A stretch of DNA of 3,562 bases, taken from IMG/VR virus record IMGVR_UViG_2563366990_000015, one strand, 5' to 3'. This DNA comes from a virus. Lineage: Duplodnaviria > Heunggongvirae > Uroviricota > Caudoviricetes. The position numbers and the translations under genes were made by a program. Under the pieces are notes generated by a model. It saw only the letters and a program-made list of their open reading frames with translations, ran no database searches and was not told the DNA's origin. This document shows positions 1,941 to 2,357 of the stretch, piece after piece (position 1 is the first letter of the stretch; the number at the start of each line of letters is the position of its first letter).

Positions 1941-2357
1941 ATGACTACACAAAAAGCAAAAACCATAATTAAACGATACAACGTACGTAGTGGTGTGGCT
2001 GGCGTTGTCTTTTCCGATGTGACACAGCGACGCAGCTTCCGCACTGGCACAGAACGCCACGCAGCCCGTTTCTCAACCAGTGCATCACGCAGCAACACGC
2101 ACTACAGCCTGCAGGAAACGCACGCCACGCCTGACGGGCATCTGGTTAAACAAACCGGTAAACACACCTGGCTGATTAATGATGCCGGAATTGTCATACA
2201 CAGAGGCGCACGCAACCCGATTACCGGAAATACCTGTTACTCCCTGACTCGCGGAGATGAGCAGTTCGGGCAGGATTTCACCCTGCACGAAGCATTAAGA
2301 ACGGCAGACCGGTTAATCAGCGGTCGCAGTTTTCAGCACCCGGAACATCGCCGCTGA
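1941..2357 (+). CDS. Hypothetical protein, 138 aa, no family recognised
   Basis: Longest ORF in this interval, with ATG preceded by AGGA at an 8-nt spacer (AAAGGAAACAGCCATG). Same orientation as cox and the downstream early genes. The protein is rich in Arg/Thr/His/Ser and shows no motif I can place. The only competing ORFs are shorter antisense ones. Confidence 0.55.
   Translation: MTTQKAKTIIKRYNVRSGVAGVVFSDVTQRRSFRTGTERHAARFSTSASRSNTHYSLQETHATPDGHLVKQTGKHTWLINDAGIVIHRGARNPITGNTCYSLTRGDEQFGQDFTLHEALRTADRLISGRSFQHPEHRR

What the first reader, a model, noticed from the sequence alone, without database searches (positions are those of the whole stretch)
1941..2357. Unrecognised 138-aa protein directly downstream of cox
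The flanking int, C and cox genes are clearly P2-like, but this ORF matches nothing I can recall from P2 (orf78/B) or 186 (cII/fil/dhr) at this position. It is set off from cox by an unusually long 117-bp AT-rich spacer, has its own good ribosome-binding site, and has an Arg/Thr/His/Ser-rich, low-hydrophobicity composition. Lineage-specific insertions in temperate-phage early operons often encode host-takeover, anti-defence or superinfection-exclusion functions, so this is the best candidate for undescribed biology in the window. It could also be a diverged replication-helper gene.
Basis: partly seen in the sequence, partly recalled or inferred. Interest (0 to 1): 0.55.

Follow-up and report, generated by a model that had tools for sequence, protein, structure and literature searches.

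The report
Common prophage gene DUF4761, head-fused allele
The ORF is a real, selected gene, but it is an ordinary member of a catalogued family of unknown function (DUF4761) that follows cox in many P2-like prophages; only its first 26 residues are unusual, left by a 298-bp deletion that fused it to the start of a neighbouring gene.

Summary
ORF 1941-2357 (+, 138 aa) exists as described. The window is E. coli KTE75, and the protein is already in RefSeq (WP_001561742.1, "DUF4761 family protein"). Residues 27-138 are a standard Pfam DUF4761 protein (E = 1.3e-47) under purifying selection (dN/dS about 0.16-0.20).

DUF4761 is not a lineage-specific insertion. It is the conserved gene after cox/apl in P2-like prophages across Enterobacterales and occurs in 26% of complete E. 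coli genomes. It is usually followed by a phage 186 Fil homologue, or by DUF4754 in P88-type phages.

The variable element is an accessory-gene slot between cox and DUF4761. In this window a 298-bp in-frame deletion removed the accessory gene's body and DUF4761's own ribosome-binding site, and the ATG became GTG. DUF4761 is therefore probably made as a fusion that uses the accessory gene's spacer, RBS and first 23 codons.

No homology to P2 Orf78/B or 186 CII/Fil/Dhr was found, and no significant fold match. The protein has a disordered basic head and tail and a ~70-aa five-strand-plus-helix core. Its alleles are independent of the immunity module.

Function is still unknown. My best guess is a small early-lytic binding protein aimed at a target shared by its hosts. 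The finding is ordinary, with one minor curiosity: a portable N-terminal peptide.

The parts
1941..2357 (+). The 138-aa ORF of the finding: a chimeric DUF4761 gene (head + former UTR + canonical DUF4761). Identical to WP_001561742.1 of E. coli KTE75.
1824..1940 (+). 117-nt spacer. It is the 5' UTR of the accessory gene that sits between cox and DUF4761 in sister prophages (KY171 aligns throughout with only scattered mismatches). It carries the SD AAGGAA at 1929-1934. No promoter, terminator, Rfam family or stable RNA fold was found.
1941..2009 (+). Head: the first 23 codons (MTTQKAKTIIKRYNVRSGVAGVV), derived from the accessory gene and not from DUF4761. It is 71% identical in DNA to the KY171 accessory gene and closest in peptide to P0245 (MTKQYNVRSGKSGVV). 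GC is 0.41.
2010..2018 (+). TTTTCCGAT: the last 9 nt of the canonical DUF4761 5' UTR, now translated as F-S-D. The deletion junction lies between 2009 and 2010. The canonical SD (aacGGGG) that precedes this sequence in relatives is missing.
2019..2357 (+). Canonical 112-aa DUF4761 coding sequence. Its start codon is ATG in relatives and GTG here. The 112-aa protein read from this codon is identical to a protein seen on 285 contigs.
2019..2114 (+). Basic Arg/Ser/Thr-rich tail (residues 27-58, pI 12.0), predicted disordered. It contains the nearly invariant G-x-x-R-H-x-x-R motif of the E. coli/Salmonella long forms and is absent from the 64-72-aa forms in other genera.
2115..2333 (+). Folded DUF4761 core (residues 59-131): five beta-strands followed by one alpha-helix. 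The family-wide motif is G-x-D-F-x-L-x-E-A-x-x-T. The core-only model has mean pLDDT 81.7, with about 88-91 per 10-residue block over most of the folded part.
1536..1823 (+). cox (95 aa, Pfam Phage_Cox), the first gene of the early operon. The mosaic boundary with the downstream block lies within about 16 nt after its stop codon.
1407..1436 (+). Pe-like sigma-70 promoter (TTGACA-18-TATCCT). It is the only + strand promoter-like site upstream of cox and the ORF, so the ORF is probably transcribed from it as the second gene of the early operon (inferred).
2377..2619 (+). DUF4754 (80 aa), the constant downstream partner of DUF4761 in P88-type phages (found in the same 12 phage records). Not detectably related to Fil.
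2616..2741 (+). 41-aa hydrophobic (single predicted transmembrane segment) ORF whose ATG overlaps the DUF4754 stop codon (ATGA). It is 98-100% conserved in the sister prophages compared (61% to the 37-aa P88 gene), as part of the conserved block.

Best explanation
WHAT IT IS (shown). Residues 27-138 are an ordinary member of Pfam DUF4761. This is the conserved gene that follows cox/apl in the early operon of P88-type (Xuanwuvirus) and many other P2-like prophages of Enterobacterales. The first 26 residues and the long spacer are foreign to it. In sister prophages an accessory gene of 76-107 aa lies between cox and a 111/112-aa DUF4761 that has its own Shine-Dalgarno (aacGGGG) and ATG. In this allele a 298-bp deletion removed the accessory gene's body, its stop codon and the DUF4761 Shine-Dalgarno. 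It also turned a +1 frame offset into an in-frame junction, and the old ATG now reads GTG.

HOW IT IS EXPRESSED (inferred). Transcription comes from Pe through cox. Translation starts at ATG 1941 on the accessory gene's AAGGAA site and runs through as one 138-aa protein: head, then F-S-D-V, then basic tail, then core.

WHAT IT DOES (inferred, about 0.35-0.4). It is a small, basic, non-enzymatic early-lytic protein that works by stoichiometric binding through its ~70-aa five-strand-plus-helix core (conserved face G-x-D-F-x-L-x-E-A-x-x-T). Its target would be common to its Enterobacterales hosts and not specific to the phage's immunity or replication module. That makes it a host-modulating accessory of the same class as its usual neighbours Fil (division inhibitor) and Dhr (replication inhibitor). 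The disordered basic N-terminal extensions would be lineage-specific add-ons that tune affinity or stability. Direct nucleic-acid binding is the main alternative (about 0.3).
For: Family membership: Pfam DUF4761 at 160.7 bits and phrog_2492; the exact protein is in RefSeq under that name.

Fusion: alignment with KY171 shows a 298-nt gap at window 2009|2010, with 71% identity in the head and 97.7% downstream. Relatives share ttaacttaaacGGGGtttt(c/t)cgatATG, of which only ttttccgat + GTG survives here. Frame arithmetic agrees: (6495-6119) mod 3 = 1 in KY171 versus 78 = 26x3 here. GC steps from 0.41 to 0.56 at the junction. The accessory gene family exists with and without the head and is always followed by a canonical DUF4761. 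No homologue covers residues 1-26.

The allele is real and tolerated: 18 contigs, in apparently complete prophages at two integration sites, with one synonymous difference between backgrounds. A natural head+tail+core architecture exists in P0083.

Conserved position: cox/apl, then DUF4761, with gaps of 7-37 nt in Klebsiella, Serratia, Enterobacter, Erwinia and P88. In 20 species loci, Fil follows in 14 and DUF4754 in 3. Int was found upstream in 19 of 20, and the GPA replicase downstream in 17 of the 18 loci that extend far enough.

Not immunity- or replicase-specific: identical or 99% identical alleles sit next to Int/C/Cox modules only 14-56% identical. Short forms occur with both 186-like and P88-like replicases.

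Binding protein rather than enzyme: core of only 64-72 aa in most genera; always basic (median pI 9.9-10.3); no match to any solved structure or enzyme family.
Confidence: 0.7

Rival explanations
1. The true gene is the canonical 112-aa DUF4761 starting at GTG 2019. The 78 nt upstream (1941-2018) would be a non-functional remnant that is open in frame by accident.
For: Nearly all relatives start at the equivalent codon. GTG is a legal start. The 112-aa sequence is identical to a protein seen on 285 contigs.
Against: The canonical Shine-Dalgarno (GGGG) is deleted and nothing SD-like precedes 2019. A strong SD plus ATG lies 78 nt upstream in the same frame with no stop codon between them, so ribosomes starting there must make the fusion. 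The ATG-to-GTG change weakens the old start. The arrangement is kept unchanged in 18 contigs and two prophage backgrounds. Both products could coexist.
Confidence: 0.15
2. DUF4761 is a functional analogue of 186 CII: a small DNA-binding early regulator (for example of lysogeny establishment or of a leftward promoter) occupying the cII slot between apl/cox and fil.
For: The positions match exactly: apl-cII-fil-dhr in 186 versus cox/xis-DUF4761-fil(-dhr-like) in 14 of 20 species loci, and no CII homologue occurs in any DUF4761 locus. The protein is always basic, with extra Arg-rich disordered tails in E. coli forms. In 186 the CII site lies inside the 5' end of cII itself, so independence from the immunity module does not exclude this reading.
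Against: There is no helix-turn-helix: the fold is five strands plus one helix. hhalign probability against CII is 0.1-0.7%. These phages have P2-type C/Cox switches, and P2 itself has no CII (established knowledge). Up to about 1 kb of accessory DNA, including reverse-oriented genes, is tolerated between cox and DUF4761. No leftward promoter-like site lies near the gene.
Confidence: 0.15
3. One reading: a lineage-specific moron encoding anti-defence, superinfection exclusion or host takeover, inserted between conserved cox and the replication genes.
Against: The gene is positionally fixed and widespread, not variably present. The variable slot is upstream of it. It has no promoter or terminator of its own. 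There is no PADLOC hit. The spacer and RBS belong to another gene.
Confidence: 0.08
4. A replication helper replacing P2 gene B (a helicase-loading function) in phages that lack B.
For: No P2 B homologue occurs in any DUF4761-bearing locus. The gene lies in the same operon as the GPA replicase.
Against: There is no similarity to B. Phage 186 lacks both a P2 B homologue and DUF4761. The gene associates with several replicase lineages without co-variation. The 65-aa core is small for a loader.
Confidence: 0.07

Closest known systems
Pfam DUF4761 (PF15958) / PHROG 2492, e.g. phage P88 gp04 (YP_009113047.1)
   Same: Residues 27-138 are a full-length match (profile positions 1-99 of 105, 160.7 bits). 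The position after cox, the DUF4754 + small membrane protein partners and the P88-type prophage context are all the same.
   Different: It carries 26 extra N-terminal residues derived from another gene, uses that gene's RBS, and has GTG where the family start codon lies. It is 138 aa against the usual 112-117 aa (E. coli/Salmonella) or 64-72 aa (other genera).
Phage 186 CII (lysogeny-establishment activator)
   Same: It occupies the same slot: the first gene after the Apl/Cox excisionase-repressor and before fil. It is small and made early.
   Different: There is no sequence similarity and no helix-turn-helix. The host phages use a P2-type C/Cox switch.
Phage 186 Fil and Dhr (small early host-modulating proteins)
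   Same: Same operon segment and similar size. A Fil homologue is the immediate downstream neighbour in 14 of 20 species loci, and a weak Dhr-like hit follows Fil in one. By 186 annotation these are non-essential accessory genes.
   Different: Not homologous. No host phenotype has been shown for DUF4761.
P2 Orf78 and gene B
   Same: They occupy the region after cox in P2.
   Different: No homology (probability <=0.4%). No DUF4761 locus carries them.

Membership tests
Pfam DUF4761 (PF15958) | HMM score above the curated gathering cut-off (27 bits) over most of the model | tested here: met
   160.7 bits, E = 1.3e-47, residues 33-131 on profile positions 1-99 of 105. phrog_2492 E = 3.6e-35. RefSeq names the identical protein DUF4761.
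Pfam DUF4761 (PF15958) | Typical context: the gene directly after cox/apl in a P2-like prophage early operon | tested here: met
   Here it is the next ORF after cox, although separated by a 117-nt remnant UTR.
Pfam DUF4761 (PF15958) | Canonical start codon and own ribosome-binding site; length 64-117 aa | tested here: not met
   SD deleted, ATG changed to GTG, ORF extended to 138 aa by a foreign head. This departs from the typical gene layout and does not affect domain membership.
P2 Orf78 / P2 B / 186 CII / Fil / Dhr (the finding's own refutation test) | Detectable sequence or profile homology | tested here: not met
   hhalign probability <=1.0% with the long-form profile and <=0.7% with the short-form profile.
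CII-type lysogeny activators | Helix-turn-helix DNA-binding domain | tested here: not met
   AF2 models show five beta-strands and one helix. No HTH Pfam hit.
CII-type lysogeny activators | Activates a leftward establishment promoter; needed for lysogenisation | not testable with these tools
   Needs genetics or EMSA. No leftward promoter-like site lies near the gene, but activator-dependent promoters escape consensus scans.
Moron / lineage-specific accessory cassette | Variable presence between conserved flanks, often with its own promoter and terminator | tested here: not met
   DUF4761 is constant. The variable element is the slot upstream of it. No promoter or terminator was found.
Known anti-phage defence or anti-defence proteins | Match to PADLOC models or to a solved anti-defence fold | tested here: not met

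The most novel reading that the evidence does not exclude
The N-terminal head is a portable functional peptide (K-K-(R)-Y-S-x-H-G-S-x-A-G; subtype K-x-Y-N-V-R-S-G-x-[AS]-G-V-V in this window). It is selected at the amino-acid level and is attached to whichever protein is encoded first after cox: the DUF4761 core, the unrelated 76-aa accessory core, or an unrelated 181-aa protein. It is sometimes duplicated in tandem. It could be a docking or degradation tag that ties the first post-cox product to a common partner, such as a host protease, a chaperone or Cox itself. On that reading the fusion in this window restored a favoured head-plus-DUF4761 architecture and is not simply a scar. Separately, DUF4761 itself may be an undescribed class of early regulator that replaces CII.
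Probability: 0.15. Interest if true: 0.5.

Novelty: already known. Interest (0 to 1): 0.25.

Why it matters
It matters little as a discovery. The gene is a catalogued domain of unknown function, present in about a quarter of complete E. coli genomes, and the exact protein is already in RefSeq. The analysis does give three useful results. First, it corrects the picture: the conserved element is DUF4761 and the variable slot lies between cox and DUF4761. Second, it gives a clean example of a deletion that rescues a downstream gene's expression by capturing the RBS and first codons of the gene it destroyed. Third, it shows that DUF4761 holds the cII position in a very large clade of P2-like prophages and is independent of the immunity module. 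That makes it an abundant, conserved and completely uncharacterised early gene, and a reasonable target for a simple knockout and expression study in the inducible phage P88.

Tried and rejected
1. Homology to P2/186 early proteins. hhalign with two family profiles against 17 proteins gave probability <=1% for all. tblastn of those proteins against DUF4761 loci found only Fil and downstream genes.

3. The KY171 accessory gene as a diverged DUF4761 paralogue. Rejected: only the 17-residue head aligns (local probability 2.6%, global 0.2%).

4. DUF4754 as a diverged Fil. Rejected (probability 0.05%).

5. The spacer as a regulatory element. No promoter or terminator, no Rfam family, fold z-score -0.6.

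6. The window's spacer and head as native to a head-bearing DUF4761 of the P0083 type. Rejected: the L044 spacer and head are not homologous at DNA level.

7. Head conservation as a DNA-level recombination linker or RNA element. Not favoured: Enterobacter and KY171 heads differ at synonymous sites, including Ser TCA/AGC switches. However, KY171 and the L020 181-aa gene do share near-identical head DNA.

8. Defence or anti-defence and NCBIfam libraries gave nothing for this ORF.

9. Literature. No paper contains DUF4761 or PF15958. Searches on Xuanwuvirus and P88 gave no functional data. A search on 186 fil/dhr returned only irrelevant papers.

Full report
**1. The observation**

The window is an exact copy of E. 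coli KTE75 contig KB732777.1. On the + strand an ORF runs from ATG 1941 to TGA 2357 and encodes 138 aa. It lies 117 nt after the cox stop. The spacer is 38% GC against 49% for the window. An AAGGAA Shine-Dalgarno lies at 1929-1934. The product is rich in S, T, R and H (38% of residues), hydrophilic (GRAVY -0.79) and basic (pI 10.8). All the sequence facts in the finding are correct.

**2. It is a real gene and a catalogued one**

- Pfam-A gives DUF4761 (PF15958) at 160.7 bits (cut-off 27, E = 1.3e-47) over residues 33-131. PHROGs gives phrog_2492, function unknown.
- NCBIfam and PADLOC have nothing for it.
- The exact 138-aa sequence is in RefSeq/GenBank (WP_001561742.1, ELE54741.1, "DUF4761 family protein", KTE75) and was seen on 16-18 contigs.
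- Nei-Gojobori dN/dS of the DUF4761 part is 0.165 against an 82%-identical E. coli allele and 0.197 against phage P88, with dS above 1. Against near relatives the core has 0 non-synonymous versus 2-4 synonymous changes.

The finding's own refutation criterion, an untranslated ORF, therefore fails.

**3. Only residues 27-138 belong to the family**

Among 92 homologue clusters almost all are 112-117 aa, and none covers the first 26 residues. In complete E. coli genomes, all near matches except one begin at window 2010, which is inside the ORF.

The exception is the strain KY171 prophage. It has cox, the same spacer, a 107-aa hypothetical gene, and then a 112-aa DUF4761 with its own ATG. Aligned to it, the window shows the following:

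- It lacks 298 bp between positions 2009 and 2010.
- Window 1941-2009 corresponds to the first 23 codons of the KY171 accessory gene (49 of 69 nt identical).
- Window 2010-2357 corresponds to the last 9 nt of the DUF4761 5' UTR plus the DUF4761 gene (340 of 348 nt identical).

Relatives share the leader ttaacttaaacGGGGtttt(c/t)cgatATG. The window keeps only ttttccgat, followed by GTG. In KY171 and L020 the two genes are in different frames (offset 1). Removing 298 = 3x99+1 nt puts them in frame. GC steps from 0.41 in the head to 0.56 in the DUF4761 part.

The accessory gene is a small family of its own:

| Form | Head | Followed by |
|---|---|---|
| 76 aa (commonest) | none | canonical 111/112-aa DUF4761 |
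| 99 aa | MTKQYNVRSGKSGVV, closest to the window's KRYNVRSGVAGVV | canonical 111/112-aa DUF4761 |
| 107 aa (KY171) | KKYSEHGSKAGVV | canonical 111/112-aa DUF4761 |

The ORF in the window is therefore a deletion-derived chimera: accessory-gene UTR, RBS and 23 codons, then three codons of former UTR (F-S-D), then GTG (Val), then DUF4761.

Its own SD is gone and its ATG is weakened. An in-frame ATG with a strong SD lies 78 nt upstream with no intervening stop. The DUF4761 domain is therefore most likely made only as the 138-aa fusion. This step is inferred, not shown.

The allele is not an assembly artefact. It occurs in apparently complete prophages at two integration sites (next to pdxB and next to prpC), and the two backgrounds differ by one synonymous substitution.

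**4. What is conserved and what is variable**

The comparison shows the opposite.

DUF4761 follows cox directly in phage P88 (37-nt gap). With a profile of distant members the family extends across Enterobacterales, including Klebsiella, Serratia, Erwinia, Enterobacter, Citrobacter, Edwardsiella, Hafnia and Pantoea. There the protein is usually just a 64-72-aa core. In each context examined it is the gene right after cox or a 67-aa excisionase-like gene, with gaps of 7-26 nt.

Results for the 20 loci from distinct species:

| Feature | Count |
|---|---|
| Integrase upstream | 19 of 20 |
| GPA replicase downstream | 17 of the 18 loci that extend far enough |
| 186 Fil homologue immediately after DUF4761 | 14 of 20 |
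| DUF4754 after DUF4761 (P88-type) | 3 of 20 |
| Dhr-like hit after Fil | 1 |
| P2 B, P2 Orf78 or 186 CII homologue | 0 |

DUF4761 and DUF4754 occur in exactly the same 12 phage genome records. DUF4761 DNA is found in 1436 of 5426 complete E. coli genomes, with up to four copies per genome. DUF4761 therefore sits in the slot that cII holds in 186 (apl-cII-fil-dhr).

What varies is the interval between cox and DUF4761. It can be empty or hold the 76-107-aa accessory gene, a 181-aa gene, a 68-aa gene, or pairs that include reverse-oriented ORFs.

**5. Mosaic structure**

The identical 138-aa allele lies beside two immunity modules that are only 56% (Int), 48% (C) and 56% (Cox) identical. The 99-100% identical 112-aa alleles accompany two further modules with Cox 14-21% identical. 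The breakpoint is within about 16 nt after the cox stop, so the 117-nt "spacer" travels with the downstream block. The spacer has no promoter-like or terminator-like site, no Rfam match and no unusual fold. The only + strand promoter-like site upstream is the Pe-like site at 1407-1436.

**6. The protein**

- AlphaFold2 on the full ORF gives residues 1-55 disordered (pLDDT below 50) and residues ~60-131 folded.
- A core-only model built on a deeper alignment reaches mean pLDDT 81.7, with about 88-91 per 10-residue block over most of the fold. It has five beta-strands and a C-terminal helix.
- The family-wide invariant or nearly invariant residues are G83, I86, G110, D112, F113, L115, E117, A118 and T121. 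They lie on strand 3, strand 5 and the first turns of the helix.
- The family is uniformly basic. Short forms have median pI 9.9 and net charge +6, long forms have median pI 10.3, and none is acidic.
- No solved or predicted viral structure matches significantly. The recurring top hit, an AcrIF24 domain, is far below significance.
- An exhaustive HMM search of 1.84 billion representatives found only 25 hits, so the family is narrow.

**7. Function**

Nothing here demonstrates a function. The constraints are:

- early expression as the second gene of the Pe operon;
- a tiny non-enzymatic core;
- constant basic charge;
- long retention at a fixed position in prophages of one host order;
- independence from the immunity module and from the replicase lineage;
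- habitual neighbourhood with Fil, and sometimes Dhr, which are the small host-modulating proteins of 186.

I commit, at roughly 0.35-0.4, to a stoichiometric binder of a target shared by its hosts, meaning a host-modulating early accessory. Direct nucleic-acid binding follows at about 0.3, with a CII-like regulatory role as a special case. A replication-helper role and an anti-defence role are minor possibilities.

**8. A curiosity noticed on the way**

The head peptide K-K-(R)-Y-S-x-H-G-S-x-A-G opens several different proteins:

- the 86-88-aa DUF4761 forms of Enterobacter, Edwardsiella and others;
- an E. coli DUF4761 (P0083, which naturally has head + tail + core, directly after cox in L044);
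- the KY171 accessory gene;
- an unrelated 181-aa gene directly after cox in L020.

It is also duplicated in tandem in P0237. Codon comparison shows synonymous divergence, including serine codon-family switches, so the peptide is what is conserved. Its role is unknown. The window's fusion recreates this natural head-plus-DUF4761 layout.

**9. Verdict**

The gene is an already catalogued, very common prophage gene of unknown function.

Noticed in passing
window 1941-2009; L001 6119-6187; L020 2416-2454 and 3001-3045; L017 6001-6042; L044 3501-3545: A portable N-terminal head peptide (K-K-(R)-Y-S-x-H-G-S-x-A-G, or K-x-Y-N-V-R-S-G-x-[AS]-G-V-V) occurs on three unrelated protein bodies. In the genomic contexts examined it is always on the first gene after cox. 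It is duplicated in tandem in P0237. Conservation is at the peptide level, with synonymous and Ser codon-family differences. Role unknown.
   Followed up: partly
between cox and DUF4761: L001 6119-6442; L002 3299-3902; L003 3027-3746; L020 2416-3300; L021 3001-3231; L045 3283-3489: The cox-DUF4761 interval is a variable accessory-gene slot. Contents seen: a 76/99/107-aa family without Pfam hits, a 181-aa gene, a 68-aa gene, and pairs that include reverse-oriented ORFs. None was characterised. This slot, not DUF4761, is where lineage-specific cargo sits.
   Followed up: partly
window 2616-2741 (+): A 41-aa hydrophobic ORF (MSVFLSWVILIISVLMAIGIMRII...) whose ATG overlaps the DUF4754 stop codon (ATGA), which suggests translational coupling. 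It is 98-100% conserved in sister prophages. P88 annotates the equivalent gene as a membrane protein.
   Followed up: no
window 2821-3099 (+): The 92-aa ORF has weak hits to PADLOC candidate defence models PDC-M64B (E = 3.7e-4) and PDC-M64C (E = 3.3e-3). No Pfam family.
   Followed up: no
P0034, P0049, P0055, P0078 (211 aa); P0220 (138 aa); P0128 (94 aa): Read-through fusions of DUF4761 with the gene downstream: a P88 gp05-like gene in Salmonella and E. albertii, and Fil in P0220. These could be real Rosetta-stone fusions or frameshift/annotation artefacts. Not resolved.
   Followed up: no
P0026 (146 aa), P0056 (152 aa, 1217 member sequences); L045 3501-3959: DUF4761 forms with a roughly 36-aa N-terminal extension that looks like a diverged duplication of the basic tail (MNKQQRNSEP...FRRNYFENGRYAGEVNRY, then MKQQR...RFRNGAERHANRF). 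The N-terminus of this family is evolutionarily plastic.
   Followed up: no
window 1824-1840 versus L006 6609-6625: The boundary between the diverged immunity module (int-C-cox, about 50% identical) and the near-identical early block lies within about 16 nt after the cox stop codon. This is a sharp recombination joint.
   Followed up: partly
L004 12812-13039, L001 8949-9176, L010 5282-5512 (outside the window): These P88-type prophages carry a 'derepression protein' (PF25738) in the early operon, upstream of the replicase gene with one small ORF between them. Several relatives also carry YafO or ParE-like toxins and a TumE-family gene near the replicase.
   Followed up: no
L026 (NZ_JBQPOM010000071.1, labelled Vagococcus sp. 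WN89Y): A P88-type prophage with DUF4754 97.5% identical to phage P88, in a genome labelled as a Gram-positive Vagococcus. This is probably contamination or mislabelling of the assembly.
   Followed up: no
window 1102-1509 (-): The C repressor ORF is open up to 1509 (135 aa), but gene callers place the start at 1431 (109 aa) or later (106 aa). The longer reading would overlap the Pe-like promoter at 1407-1436.
   Followed up: no
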